From NCBI RefSeq assembly GCF_009914755.1, contig NC_060940.1: a DNA stretch of 64,000 nt; one strand, given 5' to 3'. The stretch is from the human T2T-CHM13v2.0 reference genome, Homo sapiens. Below, piece by piece: positions 17,734-49,275 of the stretch (position 1 is the stretch's first letter; every line of letters starts with the position of its first letter). Below the pieces are notes generated by a model. That model was not told the origin of the DNA and did not search any database. It saw nothing but the letters and a program-made list of their open reading frames with translations. The position numbers and the translations under genes are program-made.

Positions 17734-18074
17734 TGACTTGTTATTATTTAAAAGATTTCAAGCCATAGGGAAGTCCAGCAATAGAGAAGACATAGCTGGG
17801 CCTTATTTCAGAGAATTTCTCCTGAGAGGCTGGCTGGATTCAAATCAGTGCACAGCTTTTTAGCTCTGTGACGATGAGCACGTTGCTTGAACTTTCTTTG
17901 TTGTAGGTGTCCATTTATTAATATGGGTTCATGCGTAGTATTTCCCTTTACAATTGTTGTAAAGGTTCAAACAATAAAAATGATTAAAAGGAGACTGGCA
18001 CAGACTCAACCTTAAGCAATTGCTAGTAATATTGAAGGGAATTAACCACTTGTCTTTCTTACTTCTTATGTTAA

Positions 18075-22140: not shown

Positions 22141-23010
22141 GTTGAGTATAAAAAGTAGACTTTGTTTTTATATTTCATACTAATTCATTTTAGTTTATTT
22201 TGCCAAAGCTTAGGTCTGTTACAGATGCCCATACCATGATATCTCTTACGTGCTATCCCCAACCCCTCCCTTCCTCCCTCTGCGCACCATCGCCACCAGC
22301 TTTGCCTCTCTGGGGTCCGTGTGCAGCTCCATCCTCGTGCTCACCTTCTACACTGGCTGTAGCAGGGAGCGGAGCTAGTGAGCAGTGTGCAGATGAGCCA
22401 CGGTGGAGGTGACTTGCTTCTCCCTCACCCTCCCCTCTCATTGTCTGTCCTTCTTCCCACCTAGGACCCTCAAAATCGTTTCCCCTGCAGACAGAATGTG
22501 GCAACCAAGGGTCGGCCTCTCTCTCTGTTCCTTCGATGCTCCTCCTCTGAGGTGATGGTGGGCACATTTGTCAGTTTCCTCCTTTTCATATAGTTCTCCC
22601 GGACTATCCCAGGCCTGCCAGCCACCCCACTGCAGGATGGCAGTTTTGAAAATGAGGGGCACCCTCCAAAGAGGATGACTTTGGGTGACATGCAGACCCT
22701 GCGGTCAATCAAGGAGAGTAGTGGGTATTTCTCTTCAATGTTCTTATCATGTAACATTTAGAACGTGCCAGGCCTCTTTAAATCATTCATTCCTTGAACA
22801 CTCCCAATAATCCTAAAGGGAAATGCTATTTATGAACCCATTTTACTAATCTGACAACTATAACAAGAAGTTTAAGTAACTTGCTCAACATCAGAGAGCT
22901 GAAAACTTATCACTGATTTAAATCTAGCCAGCCTCTCAAGAGAAGCTGTCCATGATCAAGCTTTCCTTTGGCCCAGGTATGTCGTCAGCACTTTTCTATT
23001 GCTGGAAATC
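22141..23010 (-). other. Inverted relic of an MT1IP-like repeat unit whose gene body is deleted
   Basis: 22251-23010 reverse-complements to MT1IP upstream (~35145-35300 and 36245-36820); 22141-22250 reverse-complements to MT1IP 3' flank (~39351-39470). Confidence 0.8.
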
Positions 23011-23191
23011 TTTTTTTTTTTTTTTTTTTTTTTGAGACGGATTCTCCCTGTGTCGGCCAGGCTGGAGTGCAGTGGCTCCATCTCAGCTCACTGCAACCTC
23101 AATCTCGGCTCACTGCAACCTCCGTCTCCCAGGCTCAAGCAATTCTCCTGCCTAAGCCTCCAGAGTTAGCTGGGACTACAGGCGTGTGCCA
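23011..23191 (-). mobile_element. Alu right arm only, cut by a deletion
   Basis: Shares tail-side flank and the private motif cctggccgac with the Alu at 34855-35143. Confidence 0.85.
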
Positions 23192-23208
23192 AGATGATGC
23201 TTGACTCT

Positions 23209-23805
23209 GAGCTGGCGCAGGTGCAGGACCCACCTGCAGGGAAGAGAAAAAGGCAGTGAGCAGTGAGTGTGCTGCAGGGTTAGGAGCAGGCCCTCAGCAT
23301 CCTCATGCTCAGTGCATGGGAAACCTGGTACCTTGTTCTGCTCAGGCACACGGAAGCCCAGCCCCATCTTTTCTCCACACAGGTTGGGATAGGCAGGCGC
23401 CCTCCTAATTTTACTCCACAAGGCCTTATGTCAGGAATCCTTAAGAGGCAATGCTCCCTGCCTCCCATCCACTTCAGGCAGCTCTAATGCGGGACAGAGC
23501 ACTGGGTCCCAGCCCAGGACCCTACTGGCTATCTGGGTGACCCGGAGCAGGGCAGTTTTGAGCCTCAGTCCTCTAGCTTCAGAAATGGAAGGCACTGGGA
23601 AGATGACAACAGTCTAAGTGGTGATGAAGGCGCTTGGCAGGAAGAAAGCACCGGAAGTGCAAAGTAAAGGAGGCCACTTTAGGGAGAGCTAACATGCACC
23701 TCCCTCCTGCCCCGGGGACATTCCATCCTCTGGAATGAAAATGGAGATCCTAAGGCCCGAAACCCGGTATCTCTTACTAGTGGAGCAGGAGCACTTGGGG
23801 TACAT
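23209..23805 (-). pseudogene. Truncated MT1IP-like metallothionein gene (exon 1 23805-23778, intron 1, first 25 nt of exon 2 23233-23209)
   Basis: Reverse strand ATGTACCCCAAGTGCTCCTGCTCCACTA|GTAAG ... cctgcAG|GTGGGTCCTGCACCTGCGCCAGCTC, then homology stops. Intron closely matches MT1IP intron 1 minus its AluY. Confidence 0.88.
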
Positions 23806-24290: not shown

Positions 24291-26071
24291 GTGGAGGTGG
24301 CTTTTGTTTCTCCTCCGCGCCCCCTCCCCGCCCGCCCCGCACATTGCCTGTCGCTCTTCCCACCTAGGACCCTCAAACTGGTTCCCCCTGTACACAGAAC
24401 CTGGCGACCACGGATCATCCCCTCTCTCTTCCTTCGATGCGATCATATAACATTTAGATTTTGCCAGGCCCCTTTAAATCATTGCTTCTTTGAACCCTCC
24501 CAACAATCCTAAAGGGAAATACTGTTTATGAACCCGTTTTACTAATCTGACAATTATAGCATAAAGTTTAAGTAACTTGCTCAACATCACGGAATGGAAA
24601 AGTTGTCACTGATTTGAATCCAGCCAGCCTCTCAAGAGAAGGTGTCGATGATCAAGCCTTCCTTTGGCCCAGGTACGTCATCAGCATTTCCCTATTGCTG
24701 GAAATCTTTTAAACAATGTCAAGCCACAAGCTGAACCATAAGCCGTGATAAAAGCAATCTATAACTGTAATATATATACACACACATACAACACACACTT
24801 ATACTTCTTCTGACTATCTTCTATGTGTGGAATAAGACTGATTTTCATTTTTGCTGCTGGAAAAGAGTTTGCTTTAAATGAAAATATATTTAAGAAAATA
24901 TTAATAATTTCAATATTGTATGTTAAGTAAAGTACAGTGACTGGGAGGGCAGAAATGATATTCTTTTTGATCTGACATGAGGCATGGAATCTTGTTTATA
25001 CGTTTACATCCCTAGTGTTAGCGAATGTCCCTTTGACCACAGGACACATGTTCATGTAGTAGATGAGAATAACAAGATACACAAGTGAGAACATCTGGCC
25101 TGGCTGCTTTGTCTGTGAGTAAATAAATATCCCTCATGCTATGTATAATGAGAAAAAAAAAGCAACAGTTATTGTTATAGATGACTTACCCCTTGCCAGG
25201 CACCATTCTAAGTTCCTTACATGAATTAAATCATTTAATTTTACAAGCCAGATACTATTATCCTCCAGTTGATAAGACTGAGACACAGAGGTTGTGTCAC
25301 ACACAAAGTGGCAGAGGTGGGATTTGCACTCATGCAGGCTGACTGCAGCATCGTGCCCTTACCCCATGCTCTATGCCACCAAGTCAATACAAGGATGAGG
25401 ATGCTGAATGTCTGGCCGTGAGGCAGCTTTGGAAGCACATTGAGTTGGCAGTCAGATCGCTGTGCATAGCCATGGACCTCTCTGGGCTTCAGTTCCTATC
25501 TCTCAAGCCAAGAGCAAAATTTGTTCATCTCCAAAGTCCTTTATAGCTTTGAACAGAGATTGGCAGGGTTTGGCATCTAGGGATGCCATGATCTGCCAGC
25601 TGTGGGCAGGGCCAGAGGCCAGCCTTACCATAGGTTCATCCATCCCTTTCCTTCTCAGCTGTGTGGCATTGGGGAGGTTGCTTAATTCCTCTGAAAGATG
25701 ACTCAAGCACACCAGCCCCTGAATATTTTCTGTCCCTGTCCTGAAGCTTGTGACCTTCATTCAACAGGTTACATGAAGGTCAAATGACATGAAGAATGGG
25801 AAAGGATTTTATGAGTGTTCAAATGTTGGGGGAGCGTCTTATCACAGAGGACTTTCTGCAGGAGGACATCCACACTCCTCCTGTCACTGGATCAGCCAGG
25901 TATGCAACCACTTCACAGCATCCCACCCAGAGCAATGCTTCCAAACCAATGAGCCTTTCTCCAGGAGTGAGTTAGGATTTAATGGTATCTTTTTCCAAGA
26001 AAGTCAGTGCAGAGAGAATGATCATAATCACCATTGTTTATTAAAGCCTAGGCAGCAGCCAGGCCACTCTC

Positions 26072-33734: not shown

Positions 33735-34854
33735 GACAGAGAGAGAGAGAATGAGGAATGATGCCTGGCAAGTGGTGAGTAGTCTATAATATTGGCTATT
33801 GCTTCTTTAAAACAATCATTACACATAGCGTAGGGGACATTTGTTTATTCACAGACAAAGCAGCCAGGCCTGGAGTGCCTAGCTGTGTATACTGTAACTG
33901 TCATCTACCACTCAAACACGGGTCCTGTGGACCAGAGAGTCAGTCACTGTAACCACAAAAATGTCATCAACACAGGGTTATAAAGCTATGAGCACGATGC
34001 AGTGCCTCATGTCACATATAGAATGACTGCCATTTCTGCTGCCATGTGCACATTTTATGTATCATTTCACATTGAAATGATTAATACTCTCTGAGATGAA
34101 CAAATTTTGCTCTTGGCTTGAGAGATGGGAACGGAAGCCCAGGGAGGTCGCGGCTATGCACAGGGGTCTCACTGCCAACTCAACGTGCTTCCACCGCTGC
34201 ATCCCAGCGGTGGAATATGAGGACATTCAGCATCATCATGTTTGTGTTGACTTGGTGGCATAGAGCATGGGGTAAGGACATGATGCTGCAGTCAGCCTGT
34301 ATGAGTGCAAATCCCAACTCTGCCACGATGTGTGTGACGCAACCTCTCTGTGTCTCAGTCTCATCAGCTGGAGTATAATAATATCTGCTTGTAAAATTAA
34401 ATGATTTAATTCATGTAAGGAACTTAGAATGGTGCCTGGCAAGCAGTGAGTCATCTATAACATTAACTGTTGCTTTTTTTTCTCTCATTACATATAGCAT
34501 GGGGGATATTTATTTACTCACAGACAAAACAGCTAGGCCAGATATGCTCACTTGTGTATCCTGCTATTCTCATCTACTACATGAACATGTGTCCTGTGGT
34601 CAAAAGGGACATTTGCTCTTCCCATATAATAGTCATCAACACTAGGGATATAAAGCTATAAGCAAGATTCCATGCTTCATGTCAGATGAAAAAGAATGTC
34701 ATTTCTGTACTCACAGTCACTGTATTTTACTTAACTTATAACATTGAAGTGACTGATATTTTCTTAAGTATATTTTTTTATTTAAAGCCAACTCTTTTCC
34801 ACCAGTGAAAATGAAAATCAGTCTTATTCCACACATAGAAGATAGTCAGAAAAA

Positions 34855-35143
34855 GCTGGGCACAGTGGCTTACGCCTGTATTCCCAGCACTTTGGGAGGC
34901 CGCGGCAACCGGATTACCTGAGGTCGGGAGTTGGAGACCAGCCTGGCCAACTTGGTGAAACCTGGTCTCTACTAAAAATACAAAAATTACTTGGCATGGT
35001 GGCACACGCCTGTAGTCCCAGCTACTCTGGAGCCTTATGCAGGAGAATTACTTGAGCCCGGGAGACAGAGATTGCAGCCAGCCGAGATCGCGCCACTGCA
35101 CTCCAGCCTGGCCGACAGAGGGAGACTCCGTCTCAAAAAAAAA
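34855..35143 (+). mobile_element. AluS without TSD
   Basis: Full-length dimer; flanks lack ~90 nt that are present at the paralogous empty site 24711-24803. Confidence 0.85.
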
Positions 35144-35300
35144 GATTACCAGCAATAGAGAAGTGCTGACAAACCTGGGCCAAAGGAAGGCTTGATCTTG
35201 GACACTTTCTCTTGAAACGCTGGCTAGATTCAAATCAGTGTAAACTGTTTAGCTCTGTGATGTTGAGCAAGTTACTTAAACTTCTTGTTACAGTTGTCAG

Positions 35301-35757
35301 TTTCATTCGCGTCCATGTGAAGAGACCACCAAACAGGCTTTGTGTGAGCAACATGGCTGTTTATTTCACCTGGGTGCAGGTGGGCTGAGTCCGAAAAGAG
35401 AGTCAGCGAAGGGTGGTGGATTATCATTAGTTCTTGTAGGTTTTGGGACAGGCGGTGAAGAGCAATGTTTTGTGGGCAGGGGTGGATCTCACAAAGTACA
35501 TTCTCAAGGGTGGGGAGAATTACAAAGAAACTTCTTAAGCGTGGGGGAGATTACAAAGTATCTTCTTAAGGGTGGGGGAGATTACAAAGTACATTGATCA
35601 GTTAGGGCGGGGAAGAAACAAATCACAATGGTGGGATGTCATCAGTTAAGGCTATTTTTACTTCTTTTGTGGATCTTCAGTTACTTCAGGCCATCTGGAT
35701 GTATATGTGCAAGTCACAGGGGATGCGATGGCTTGGCTTGGGTTCAGAGGCCTGACA
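35301..35757 (-). mobile_element. HERV-H solo LTR, type II (LTR7B-like)
   Basis: Reverse strand TGTCAGGCCTCTGAACCCAAGCC...GAATGAAA; internal tactttgtaatctcccccacccttaagaag repeats; perfect TSD GTCAG (35296-35300, 35758-35762). Confidence 0.9.
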
Positions 35758-35792
35758 GTCAGATTAGTAAAACAGGTCATAAATAGTATTTC

Positions 35793-36244
35793 TGTCAGGC
35801 CTCTGAGCCCAAGCCAAGCCATCGCATCCCCTGTGACTTGCACGTATACGCCCAGATGGCCTGAAGTAATTGAAGAATCACAAAAGAAGTGAAAATGCGC
35901 TGCCTTGCCTTAACTGATGACATTCCACCACAAAAGAAATGAAAATGGCCTGTTCCTGCCTTAACTGATGACATTATCTTGTGAAATTCCTTCTCCTGGC
36001 TCATCCTGGCTCAAAAGCTCCCCTACTAAGCACCTTGTGACCCCCACTCCTGCCCGCCAGAGAACAACCCCCCTTTGACTGTGATTTTCCTTTACCTACC
36101 CAAATCTTATAAAACGGCCCCACCCCTATCTCCCTTCGCTGACTCTCTTTTCGGACTCAGGCCGCCTGCACCCAGGTGAAATAAACAGCCTTGTTGCTCT
36201 CACAAAGCCTGTTTGGTGGTCTCTTCACAAGGATGCAAGTGAAA
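35793..36244 (+). mobile_element. HERV-H solo LTR, type I (LTR7)
   Basis: TGTCAGGCCTCTGAGCCCAAGCC...GTGAAA; two cacaaaagaa..gccttaactgatgacatt repeats; TATAAAA 36108-36114; perfect TSD ATTTC (35788-35792, 36245-36249). Confidence 0.92.
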
Positions 36245-36669
36245 ATTTCCCTTTAGGATTGTTGGGAGTGTTCAAGGAATTAATGATTTAAAGAGGCCTG
36301 GCACATTCTAAATGTTACATGATAAGAACATTGAACAGAAATACCCACTTCTCTCCTTGATTGACCGCAGGGTCTGCATGTCACCTAAAGTCATCCTCTT
36401 TGGAGGGCATCCCTCATTTTCAAAACTGCCATCCTGCAGTGGGGTGGCCGGCAGGCCTGGAAAGTCCCGGAGAACTATATGAAAAGGAGGAAACTGACAA
36501 ATGTGCCCGCCATCACCTCAGAGGAGGAGCATGGAGGGAAGAGAGAGAGGCCGACCCGTGGTCGCCACGATCTGTCTACAGGGGAAAAGAGTTTGAGGGT
36601 CTTAGGTGGGAAGAGTTACAGGTAATGAGGGGGGAGGGCGAGGGAGAAGCAAAAGTCACCTCCACCATG

Positions 36670-47778: not shown

Positions 47779-47830
47779 AATTTTTTAAAAAACTTGTCAC
47801 TGAATGGACAAGACAGGGGCATTGCTGAAA

Positions 47831-49275
<1,445 letters not shown>

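What the first reader, a model, noticed from the sequence alone, without database searches (positions are those of the whole stretch)
35296..36249. Two independent HERV-H solo LTRs of different subtypes inserted back-to-back, 35 bp apart, inside the MT cluster
Seen: a minus-strand type II LTR (35301-35757, TSD GTCAG) and a plus-strand type I LTR (35793-36244, TSD ATTTC). Each has its own perfect 5-bp TSD, so these are two separate integrations. Both mirror copies of the site (~22815-22860, ~24510-24560) are empty. The plus LTR keeps TATAAAA and two ACAAAAGA (SOX-like) motifs (35880-35887, 35930-35937) and points at the MT1IP promoter ~820 bp away. The minus LTR has TACAAG at its TATA position and points back toward MT1H/MT1G. 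Their near-identical 5' ends form a ~95-bp-arm inverted repeat. Established: LTR7-family LTRs act as promoters/enhancers in pre-implantation and pluripotent cells, with subtype-specific timing. Inference: a primate-specific composite embryonic enhancer or bidirectional promoter that could drive metal-independent MT1G/H/X or LTR7-MT1IP chimeric expression.
Basis: partly seen in the sequence, partly recalled or inferred. Interest (0 to 1): 0.72.

Follow-up and report, generated by a model that had tools for sequence, protein, structure and literature searches.

The report
Two adjacent HERV-H solo LTRs
Two old retrovirus remnants (HERV-H solo LTRs of different subtypes) landed separately 35 bases apart, head to head, between human metallothionein genes; they are real but ordinary, and one is already listed publicly as a stem-cell enhancer.

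Summary
A minus-strand LTR (35301-35757) lies between two GTCAG copies. A plus-strand LTR (35793-36244) lies between two ATTTC copies. Two paralogous sites in the window are uninterrupted and carry each 5-mer once.

Both are HERV-H LTRs. The plus copy is 91.6% identical over its full length to the LTRs at the ESRG and LINC-ROR start sites. The minus copy is 93.5% identical to the LTR that ends HHLA2. Their central ~210 nt do not align with each other. By the mapping in Carter 2022, the plus copy is LTR7 sensu stricto (type I, the 7up/7u1 branch, probably the older 7u1-like part). The minus copy is most likely LTR7B (type II).

Divergence gives roughly 10-25 My for each, after the local MT1 duplication. 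Their order cannot be told here.

RefSeq already lists 35646-36317 as an "OCT4-NANOG-H3K27ac hESC enhancer". This label looks like a family property of the plus-type LTR. No annotated transcript starts in either LTR. A role in MT1 regulation is plausible but not shown. The pairing is uncommon (about 0.07 such pairs expected), but the elements are ordinary and already annotated.

The parts
35296..35300 (.). Left copy of target-site duplication 1 (GTCAG)
   Evidence: This 5-mer occurs once in each paralogue in alignment A3.
35301..35757 (-). Solo HERV-H LTR, 457 bp, M type (most likely LTR7B, type II). Its 5' (U3) end is at 35757. It holds a TATA-like TACAAG at 35433-35438 (minus strand) and an AATAAA signal at 35360-35365 (minus strand).
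   Evidence: 2986 first-look candidates, 40 scored; the best non-self matches are 95-92% identical over the full length; 93.5% identical over the full length to the LTR that ends HHLA2 (L008). Searches give its duplications, divergence, alignment and motifs.
35481..35589 (-). Three tandem ~31-bp units inside the minus LTR, two with an exact GGGTGGGG box (35508, 35570) and one with a one-base variant; they belong to the central part that does not align with the plus LTR.
   Evidence: family D1; shared by all 9 relatives shown.
35758..35792 (.). 35-bp host spacer. Its first 5 bp are the right copy of duplication 1 (GTCAG, 35758-35762). Its last 5 bp are the left copy of duplication 2 (ATTTC, 35788-35792).
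   Evidence: It matches 22855-22820 and 24551-24516.
35793..36244 (+). Solo HERV-H LTR, 452 bp, P type (LTR7 sensu stricto, type I; 7up/7u1 branch, probably 7u1-like). It holds TATAAAA at 36108-36114 and AATAAA at 36180-36185.
   Evidence: 3073 candidates, 40 scored; the best non-self matches are 94-92% identical; 91.6% identical over the full length to the ESRG and LINC-ROR start-site LTRs. Searches give its tree position, alignment and motifs.
35879..35975 (+). Tandem ~50-bp duplication in U3 of the plus LTR (blocks 2a/2b in Carter 2022's terms). AAAAGAAG lies at 35882-35889 and the one-base variant AAAAGAAA at 35932-35939.
   Evidence: families D2, D3; alignment A1; Carter 2022, section 9 and a section 11 passage.
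36245..36249 (.). Right copy of target-site duplication 2 (ATTTC)
35654..35896 (.). Inner inverted repeat formed by the two facing 5' LTR ends: 105-nt arms, 92% complementary, 33 nt between the arms.
   Evidence: pair I2; as single-stranded DNA it folds at -119.2 kcal/mol, z-score -27.5; 0 of 39 other scored loci hold both arms.
35646..36317 (.). RefSeq functional element 'OCT4-NANOG-H3K27ac hESC enhancer'. It covers the whole plus LTR, the spacer and 112 bp of the minus LTR.
   Evidence: the one other P-type copy on chr16 that I checked carries the same label.
22820..22855 (-). Paralogous empty site A
24516..24551 (-). Paralogous empty site B

Best explanation
These are two independent germline integrations of HERV-H. 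Each was later reduced to a solo LTR by recombination between its own two LTRs. They lie 35 bp apart with their U3 ends facing each other, in the spacer between MT1H and MT1IP.

Shown here:
- Each LTR has its own 5-bp target-site duplication.
- The paralogous sites are empty.
- The two LTRs belong to different subfamilies.

The minus copy belongs to the mostly-solo subfamily whose centre holds three ~31-bp repeats. This is most likely LTR7B (type II). The plus copy is LTR7 sensu stricto (type I), of the branch with the tandem 2a/2b block (7up/7u1). It sits in an older-looking side clade, which I read as 7u1-like.

Both inserted after the local MT1 segment duplicated, roughly 10-25 million years ago, in hominoid or great-ape ancestors. 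The date is inferred from divergence and from published subfamily ages.

Function: the plus LTR behaves like most of its family in human embryonic stem cells. It is bound by NANOG and OCT4, carries H3K27ac, and scored in an episomal enhancer assay; this comes from public annotation. Neither LTR is an annotated promoter. Any action on the MT1 genes is inference.
For: Structure:
- Duplications and boundaries.
- Colinear empty paralogues with 5-bp junction overlaps.

Family:
- About 3000 first-look candidates in the genome for each LTR.
- The termini are shared with relatives: TGTC at the start in 61 of 63 and GAAA at the end in 63 of 63 both-end-aligned relatives.
- 5-bp duplications are the family norm: 30 of those 63 have a perfect one. 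Most of the rest sit next to TTTGG (5' LTR) or AGGAA (3' LTR).
- Two M-type pairs about 5.2-5.5 kb apart share one duplication each, ATAGT and GGTAG.
- Named anchors: the ESRG and LINC-ROR start-site LTRs at 91.6% and the HHLA2 3' LTR at 93.5%. HHLA2 is 'HERV-H LTR-associating 2' and takes its polyadenylation signal from such an LTR (PMC10046157, passage).

Subfamilies:
- The two top-40 lists share no locus, and only the ends of the two LTRs align with each other.
- The plus LTR holds both tandem blocks, like the ESRG and LINC-ROR LTRs. Carter 2022 gives this as particular to 7up/7u1.
- M-type relatives are 17 unique solo insertions against 3 proviruses. This fits 7b (524 solo, 113 proviral) and not 7y (77, 77).

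Age:
- Star-branch K2P for the minus LTR is 0.0295, rank 16 of 28.
- For the plus LTR it is 0.029 within its clade and 0.049 against all 42 relatives.
- Flank-to-paralogue K2P is 0.107-0.177.
- Carter 2022 places 7b and 7u1 at 9-20 My.

Function:
- The RefSeq enhancer element.
- The same label lies on the other P-type chr16 copy, while 13 of 14 M-type chr16 copies have no element.
Against: - I had no Dfam or RepeatMasker call and no named 7B, 7Y or 7u1 reference. Carter 2022 reports that 22% of old 7b annotations moved to 7y, so 7Y is not excluded for the minus LTR.
- The clade that separates the plus LTR from the ESRG type has only 117 of 200 bootstraps.
- The relatives are the 40 best-scored of about 3000 candidates, not a random sample.
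- The ages rest on recalled substitution rates (1.2-2.2e-9 per site per year) and on short sequences. The sampling error of a 0.03 branch over 450 nt is about 0.008.
- No primate genome was available, so presence or absence in other species is untested.
- The enhancer evidence is annotation. I did not see activity values or which cell state they came from.
Confidence: 0.8

Rival explanations
1. One reading: the pair has been co-opted as a composite embryonic enhancer or bidirectional promoter. It would drive metal-independent expression of MT1G, MT1H and MT1X, or LTR7-MT1IP chimeric transcripts, in pre-implantation and pluripotent cells.
For: - The RefSeq hESC enhancer lies over the junction and the plus LTR.
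- MT1G and MT1H are listed in a naive-pluripotency gene set (PMC9911396, passage).
- MT1X is named as an ICM/epiblast marker (PMC10281584, figure legend).
- A preprint states that MT1G and MT1X expression shifted from ICM in cynomolgus to epiblast in human (10.1101/318329, passage).
- The plus LTR keeps TATAAAA and AATAAA.
Against: - No RefSeq transcript or CAGE cluster starts in either LTR. MT1IP starts 849 bp downstream at its own promoter.
- The enhancer label also sits on another P-type copy on chr16, so it looks like a family default.
- The plus LTR has one exact AAAAGAAG where 37 of 42 relatives have two. The minus LTR's TATA-like box variant is shared by 0 of 32 relatives.
- None of the papers I opened links LTR7 to the MT1 locus (4 opened of the 10 and 1 papers returned; one search listed none that held LTR7).
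Confidence: 0.2
2. The 35-bp proximity is not chance. The first LTR made an open, enhancer-like site in germline or early-embryo chromatin, and this drew the second integration. Gammaretrovirus-like integrases are known to favour active enhancers and promoters; this is recalled knowledge, not tested here.
For: - Under uniform placement of the 2497 HERV-H insertions counted by Carter 2022, only 0.07 pairs are expected within 35 bp genome-wide.
- A second close pair turned up among the 39 relatives of the plus LTR: chr13:68418943-68419772, with 170 bp between the two pieces.
Against: - The statistic is post hoc.
- 0 of 39 other scored loci (1965 candidates) show the same head-to-head junction.
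- Integration is non-uniform for many reasons.
- The order of the two insertions is unknown.
- No genome-wide census was possible with these tools.
Confidence: 0.15
3. One event only: an inverted duplication of a single LTR, or a rearranged single provirus, produced the palindrome-like structure.
For: The ends of the two elements form inverted repeats of 105 and 113 nt.
Against: - Each element has its own different 5-bp duplication, and both target 5-mers occur once in two paralogues.
- The central ~210 nt of the two LTRs do not align, and their best relatives are disjoint sets.
- Arm similarity between the two is no higher than between either one and unrelated copies of the other type. For the first 105 nt it is 0.914, against medians of 0.905 and 0.914.
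Confidence: 0.01

Closest known systems
LTR7 sensu stricto (HERV-H type I LTR), 7up/7u1 branch; examples are the 5' LTRs at the ESRG and LINC-ROR start sites
   Same: - The plus LTR aligns over its full length at 91.6% to both.
- It has the same termini, the same tandem 2a/2b block, TATAAAA and AATAAA.
- It carries NANOG/OCT4/H3K27ac annotation, as is typical for the family.
   Different: - It is a solo LTR, not a proviral one.
- It lies in a longer-branched side clade (117 of 200 bootstraps) rather than in the ESRG/LINC-ROR cluster.
- It has one exact AAAAGAAG instead of two.
- No annotated transcript starts in it.
LTR7B (HERV-H type II LTR); the nearest named example is the LTR that supplies the 3' end of HHLA2
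   Same: - The minus LTR aligns over its full length at 93.5%.
- It has the same central blocks, including the three ~31-bp repeats.
- It belongs to a mostly-solo group with typical divergence, rank 16 of 28.
   Different: - Its TATA-like box variant is not seen in any of 32 relatives.
- It lacks 5 bp that 8 of the 9 relatives in alignment A2 have.
- It is not used as a polyadenylation site by any annotated gene here.
- The name 7B is inferred, not called by Dfam.
LTR7/HERVH-derived hESC enhancers: the ChIP-STARR-seq catalogue of Barakat 2018, and the HERVH enhancer upstream of APOBEC3G
   Same: - It carries the same RefSeq label class, 'OCT4-NANOG-H3K27ac hESC enhancer'; 81 elements have that label on chr16.
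- LTR7 is among the repeats most enriched in high-activity enhancers (PMC6084406).
- A HERVH enhancer acting on the APOBEC3 genes is described in PMC10281584 (legend) and PMC12228294 (passage).
   Different: - Here the element is a solo LTR next to a second, inverted LTR of another subtype.
- No target gene has been shown.
- PMC12228294 notes that enhancer roles of solo LTRs still need validation.

Membership tests
HERV-H LTR (LTR7 group) | Full-length homology to LTRs that flank HERV-H proviruses and to named HERV-H LTR loci | tested here: met
   - Plus LTR: 91.6% to the ESRG and LINC-ROR start-site LTRs. Minus LTR: 93.5% to the HHLA2 3' LTR.
- Relatives lie next to TTTGG (5' LTR) or AGGAA (3' LTR): 22 of 33 P-type and 4 of 30 M-type; a fifth M-type proviral LTR (L072) is preceded by ACGAA.
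- M-type pairs 5.2-5.5 kb apart share one duplication each.
HERV-H LTR (LTR7 group) | About 450 bp, with TGTC... at the start and ...GAAA at the end, flanked by a 5-bp target-site duplication | tested here: met
   - The LTRs are 457 and 452 bp, each with a perfect 5-bp duplication.
- Among relatives, TGTC occurs in 61 of 63, GAAA in 63 of 63, and a perfect 5-bp duplication in 30 of 63.
HERV-H LTR (LTR7 group) | Association with HERV-H internal (core gene) sequence | not tested
   Solo LTRs carry none. I did not fetch proviral interiors; the family name rests on the LTR and on print.
LTR7 sensu stricto, 7up/7u1 branch (plus LTR) | Block 2b present as a tandem duplicate of block 2a (Carter 2022, section 9) | tested here: met
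   - Direct repeats D2 (88%) and D3 (100%), spaced 50-51 bp apart.
- Both blocks align with those of the ESRG, LINC-ROR and LINC00678 LTRs.
LTR7 sensu stricto, 7up/7u1 branch (plus LTR) | 8-bp AAAAGAAG (predicted SOX2/3 site) in block 2b | tested here: inconclusive
   - There is one exact copy at 35882-35889. The downstream block reads AAAAGAAA at 35932-35939.
- 37 of 42 relatives have two exact copies.
- That the downstream copy is Carter's '2b' is my reading of the text, not of their figure.
LTR7up (the ESC-transcribed subfamily) | Clusters with the ESC-transcribed loci and has short terminal branches | tested here: inconclusive
   - The neighbour-joining tree puts the plus LTR in an 8-member long-branch clade apart from ESRG and LINC-ROR (117 of 200 bootstraps). 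The plus LTR pairs with L015 in 170 of 200.
- That ESRG and LINC-ROR are 7up is inferred from Carter's statement that ESC-transcribed loci are 7up.
LTR7B (type II) (minus LTR) | Large central insertions (blocks 2b and 3) relative to LTR7, and a mostly-solo, intermediate-age group | tested here: met
   - Only positions 1-129 and 345-457 align with the plus LTR.
- Relatives comprise 17 unique solo insertions against 3 proviruses. The probability of 17 or more out of 20 under 7y's 1:1 ratio is 0.0013 (own arithmetic).
- The group's median branch is 0.028, against about 0.022 for the ESRG-type cluster.
LTR7B (type II) (minus LTR) | Best match to the Dfam/Repbase LTR7B model rather than LTR7Y | not testable with these tools
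   No repeat library was available here.
hESC enhancer (ChIP-STARR-seq class) | OCT4/NANOG/H3K27ac ChIP enrichment plus reporter activity | not testable with these tools
   This is known only from the RefSeq element at 35646-36317. I did not see activity values (Barakat Table S2 / Data S1).
LTR-driven promoter | A transcript or CAGE cluster that starts in the LTR | tested here: not met
   No RefSeq transcript or CAGE cluster lies in 35296-36249. This is a weak test, because RefSeq lists only 3 CAGE clusters on all of chr16.

The most novel reading that the evidence does not exclude
The pair of LTRs, if hominoid-specific, could be the sequence change behind the reported shift of MT1G and MT1X expression from inner cell mass in macaque to epiblast in human, and behind MT1G and MT1H being naive-state markers. 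The plus LTR would act as a NANOG/OCT4 enhancer. The minus LTR (7B type, with KLF-like boxes) would add 8-cell-to-naive input. The second insertion may have been drawn in by the first.
Probability: 0.12. Interest if true: 0.55.

Novelty: already known. Interest (0 to 1): 0.27.

Why it matters
If the reading is right, this adds little. HERV-H LTRs are a well-studied family, both copies are masked as repeats in the reference, and the enhancer is already a RefSeq functional element.

The locus would be useful mainly as a natural example of two LTR subtypes, with different published embryonic timing, placed back to back beside a gene cluster whose members are naive-pluripotency markers. Descriptive data from primates and embryos could show whether such a pair changes host gene timing.

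The short-spacer inverted repeat (105-nt arms, 33-nt gap) is also a rare survivor of a structure class that is usually thought unstable (recalled, not tested).

Tried and rejected
- Single-event origin: rejected. The duplications are separate, the paralogues are empty, and the relative sets are disjoint.
- Gene conversion between the two LTRs: rejected. Their arm identity (0.914 and 0.929) lies within the range seen against unrelated copies. Each arm matches copies of its own type at 97-99%.
- LTR7C for either element: rejected. The UCA1 start-site LTR, which is LTR7C according to the abstract of PMC10962953 (seen in the listing), matches the plus LTR at only 70%, and the minus LTR only at its ends.
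- A type lacking one tandem block: rejected for the plus LTR. The LINC00458 LTR lacks about 40 columns there, and the plus LTR does not.
- Cuts that held no match to either LTR at E <= 1e-5: the LINC01108 start (L003) and the HHLA1 3' end (L007). I did not pursue them.
- Search for other head-to-head junctions with the 243-bp junction as query: none among 39 other scored loci of 1965 candidates. This is not a census.
- Literature: looked for LTR7/HERVH together with metallothionein/MT1. One search gave 1 paper, about MT2A and irrelevant. One search gave 10 papers, of which I opened 4. None ties an LTR to this locus. The 6 unopened papers, and all supplements, could still do so.
- Not attempted: supplements (closed). 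Carter 2022's Supplementary files 1-2 would give the subfamily call for both LTRs. Barakat 2018's Table S2 / Data S1 would give the activity and the cell state.
- Not attempted: an LTR7Y/7u2-labelled comparator at the provirus upstream of CALB1. Finding it would have meant fetching a stretch that holds a whole provirus.
- The sigma-70 promoter scan, ORF listing and protein tools were not used. They do not apply to a human solo LTR.
Full report
**1. What is there**

Reading 35100-36500 shows two LTR-like units.

- On the minus strand, 35301-35757 starts with TGTCAGG (read from 35757 downwards) and ends with ...ATGAAA. GTCAG lies at 35296-35300 and again at 35758-35762.
- On the plus strand, 35793-36244 starts with TGTCAGG and ends with ...GTGAAA. 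ATTTC lies at 35788-35792 and again at 36245-36249.
- The two 5' (U3) ends face each other across 35 bp of host DNA.

The repeat finder reports:

- inner inverted arms of 105 nt at 92% (35654-35758 / 35792-35896);
- outer arms of 113 nt at 93% (35301-35413 / 36132-36244);
- three ~31-bp tandem units in the minus element (35481-35589);
- a ~50-bp tandem duplication in the plus element (35879-35975).

As single-stranded DNA the junction folds into one long hairpin (-119.2 kcal/mol, z -27.5). This only restates the inverted repeat.

**2. Two insertions, not one**

- blastn of the flanks against the window maps the left flank, the spacer and the right flank colinearly to two minus-oriented paralogous segments. 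The first is 23001-22851 / 22855-22820 / 22824-22368. The second is 24697-24547 / 24551-24516 / 24520-24442.
- Every junction overlaps by exactly 5 bp.
- Alignment A3 shows both paralogues reading straight through, with one GTCAG and one ATTTC each.
- A weaker plus-oriented paralogue (17816-17911 / 17940-18055) also lacks any ~450-bp insertion.

So each element duplicated its own 5-bp target, and both arrived after this MT1 segment had duplicated. Flank-to-paralogue K2P distances are 0.107-0.177.

**3. Family**

- Each LTR finds about 3000 first-look candidates in the reference (3073 and 2986). Of these, 40 each were scored. The best non-self matches are full-length, at 94-92% for the plus LTR and 95-92% for the minus LTR.
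- The two lists share no locus. The two window LTRs align with each other only at their ends: 1-129/138 at 86% and the last 113 nt at 93%.
- One minus-type hit, chr3:111097653-111098112, covers the annotated 3' end of HHLA2 at chr3:111098074. HHLA2 is 'HERV-H LTR-associating 2'. A review passage says HHLA1 and HHLA2 get their polyadenylation signal from HERV-H LTRs, citing Mager 1999 (PMC10046157).

I fetched 78 short stretches and compared them.

| Named locus | Plus LTR | Minus LTR |
|---|---|---|
| ESRG start site | 91.6%, full length | ends only |
| LINC-ROR start site | 91.6%, full length | ends only |
| LINC00678 start site | 90.1%, full length | ends only |
| UCA1 start site | 70% | ends only |
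| HHLA2 3' end | ends only | 93.5%, full length |

ESRG is described as one of the most transcribed LTR7-HERVH loci (PMC12228294, passages; Carter 2022, Introduction passages).

Among relatives with both ends aligned:

- 61 of 63 start with TGTC and 63 of 63 end with GAAA;
- 30 of 63 have a perfect 5-bp duplication;
- most of the rest are followed by TTTGG (5' LTR) or preceded by AGGAA (3' LTR);
- two minus-type pairs 5.2-5.5 kb apart share one duplication each.

These are therefore HERV-H LTRs, named from the LTR and from print. I examined no proviral interior.

**4. Subfamilies**

From Carter et al. 2022 (PMC8912925) I read sections 5, 6, 7, 9 and 10 and saw passages of the Introduction and section 11. 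They equate LTR7 with type I, 7b with type II and 7y with type Ia.

They state that block 2b is a tandem duplicate of block 2a only in 7up and 7u1. It carries an 8-bp AAAAGAAG predicted SOX2/3 site and is absent from 7d, 7bc and 7o. They also state that 7b and 7y share large central insertions.

*Plus LTR.*
- It has the tandem block, like the ESRG, LINC-ROR and LINC00678 LTRs. The LINC00458 LTR lacks about 40 columns there.
- It holds one exact AAAAGAAG (35882-35889) and a one-base variant in the downstream block (35932-35939). 37 of 42 relatives have two exact copies.
- In a neighbour-joining tree of 43 copies it falls in an 8-member clade with long branches and many solo copies, apart from the cluster that holds ESRG and LINC-ROR. 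The exact clade appears in 117 of 200 bootstraps, and the pair with L015 in 170 of 200.
- Mean pairwise K2P is 0.077 inside that clade and 0.044 in the rest.
- I read this as LTR7 sensu stricto of the 7up/7u1 branch, probably the older 7u1. I had no named 7u1 reference, so this is inference.

*Minus LTR.*
- Its relatives comprise 17 unique solo insertions against 3 proviruses. Six fetched chr16 copies share the duplication CACAC and are one insertion copied by segmental duplication.
- This matches 7b (524 solo, 113 proviral) and not 7y (77, 77).
- Carter 2022 notes that 22% of old 7b calls move to 7y in their re-annotation. LTR7B is therefore the likely call, not a proven one.

**5. Age**

I used no consensus. 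I took K2P distances from MAFFT alignments and a least-squares star-branch length for each copy.

- Minus LTR: 0.0295 at all sites and 0.018 without CpG columns. It ranks 16 of 28, against a group median of 0.028.
- Two proviruses of the same type have LTR-to-LTR distances of 0.038 and 0.029.
- Plus LTR: 0.049 against all 42 relatives (their median is 0.0225). This includes differences between subfamilies. Within its own clade the value is 0.029, and the NJ terminal branch is 0.0225.
- At 1.2-2.2e-9 substitutions per site per year (recalled rates), a branch of 0.03 gives about 13-25 My.
- Carter 2022 places 7b, 7d and 7u1 at 9-20 My, with 22% of 7b shared with macaque, and 7up at 4-14 My.
- Half of the flank-to-paralogue distance (0.054-0.089) exceeds both LTR branches. 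This fits insertion after the duplication.

The two branch lengths overlap, so the order of insertion cannot be told. No primate genome was available to me.

**6. Function**

- The RefSeq table lists 'OCT4-NANOG-H3K27ac hESC enhancer' at 35646-36317. This is one of 81 elements with that label on chr16. It covers the whole plus LTR, the spacer and only 112 bp of the minus LTR, not the minus LTR's repeat region.
- I recall that these labels come from Barakat 2018. That paper reports LTR7 and HERVH-int among the repeats most enriched in the highest-activity ChIP-STARR-seq enhancers (PMC6084406, passages).
- Among the chr16 relatives from my hit lists, the single other plus-type copy (chr16:65875734-65876186) carries the same label. 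Of the 14 minus-type copies, 13 carry no element and 1 carries 'H3K27ac hESC enhancer'. Many of those lie in segmental duplications, where mapping is poor.
- Carter 2022 reports NANOG peaks on 97.7% of 7up and 85% of 7u1 loci, but robust transcription only for 7up.

The simplest reading is that the plus LTR carries its family's default binding of pluripotency factors and can act as an enhancer.

Features relevant to promoter use:

- No RefSeq transcript or CAGE cluster starts in either LTR.
- The plus LTR keeps TATAAAA (41 of 42 relatives have it) and AATAAA.
- The minus-type family has TATAAG at the same place (TATAAGAAC in 16 of 32 relatives, TATAAAA in none). The window copy has a variant found in 0 of 32.
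- The minus LTR has 2 CCCCACCC-type boxes, where its relatives have 2-4. PMC10348765 says that LTR7B, 7C and 7Y consensus sequences hold more KLF5 sites than LTR7 (passage). The motif I counted is recalled, not taken from that paper.

**7. Link to MT1 genes**

This is context only.

- MT1G and MT1H appear in a naive-state gene set (PMC9911396).
- MT1X is named as an ICM/epiblast marker (PMC10281584, legend).
- A preprint says MT1G and MT1X shifted from ICM in cynomolgus to epiblast in human (10.1101/318329).
- None of the papers I opened connects these facts to an LTR (searches; 4 of the 10 papers opened).

**8. Is the pairing special?**

- With 2497 HERV-H insertions (counts) placed uniformly, 0.07 pairs within 35 bp are expected genome-wide, and 0.4 within 200 bp.
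- A junction query found no other head-to-head pair among 39 scored loci of 1965 candidates.
- One other close pair was seen by accident at chr13:68.42 Mb: tail to tail, 170 bp apart, with one member internally deleted.
- The two arms show no excess similarity, so there is no sign of gene conversion between them.

The pairing is uncommon but lies within what non-uniform integration could give.

**9. Verdict**

The elements are real, old (about 10-25 My) HERV-H solo LTRs of two subtypes. They are already masked as repeats, and the region is already annotated as a stem-cell enhancer. The promoter claim and the MT1-regulation claim are untested. Interest is low to moderate.

Noticed in passing
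L031 (chr13:68418843-69419812 as cut; pieces at L031:101-308 and L031:478-930): Another close pair of HERV-H LTR pieces. A solo plus-type LTR with duplication ATTGC lies 170 bp, tail to tail, from an internally deleted LTR7-like piece of about 208 bp.
   Followed up: partly
chr16:18.9-31.6 Mb and 76.0 Mb (L050, L053, L056, L057, L060, L065): One minus-type solo LTR with duplication CACAC is present in many chr16 copies; 14 chr16 hits appear, and the six fetched copies share the duplication. This is evidently one insertion carried along by segmental duplications.
   Followed up: partly
window 22824-23704: A RefSeq 'H3K4me1 hESC enhancer' begins at 22824, the very base where the paralogous empty site of the plus LTR lies. 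This is probably coincidence.
   Followed up: no
window 47817-49275: DPPA2P4, a pseudogene of a pluripotency-associated gene, sits in the same MT1 cluster window according to the annotation table supplied with the finding.
   Followed up: no
L007 (chr8:133184284-133184884) and L003 (chr6:14157670-14158470): The annotated 3' end of HHLA1 and the annotated start of LINC01108 showed no match to either LTR in the stretches I cut. Yet a review says HHLA1 uses a HERV-H LTR polyadenylation signal.
   Followed up: no
window 35301-35757 versus L050 (alignment A2, columns 303-307): The minus LTR and the chr16 segmental-duplication copy both lack the same 5 bp that the 8 other copies shown have. Whether this is shared ancestry or coincidence was not resolved.
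   Followed up: no
window 34849-35152: A masked repeat with many ~80% matches across the window and a poly-A end lies directly upstream of the minus LTR's flank. It looks like an Alu, by recollection, and is absent from the short-flank comparison.
   Followed up: no
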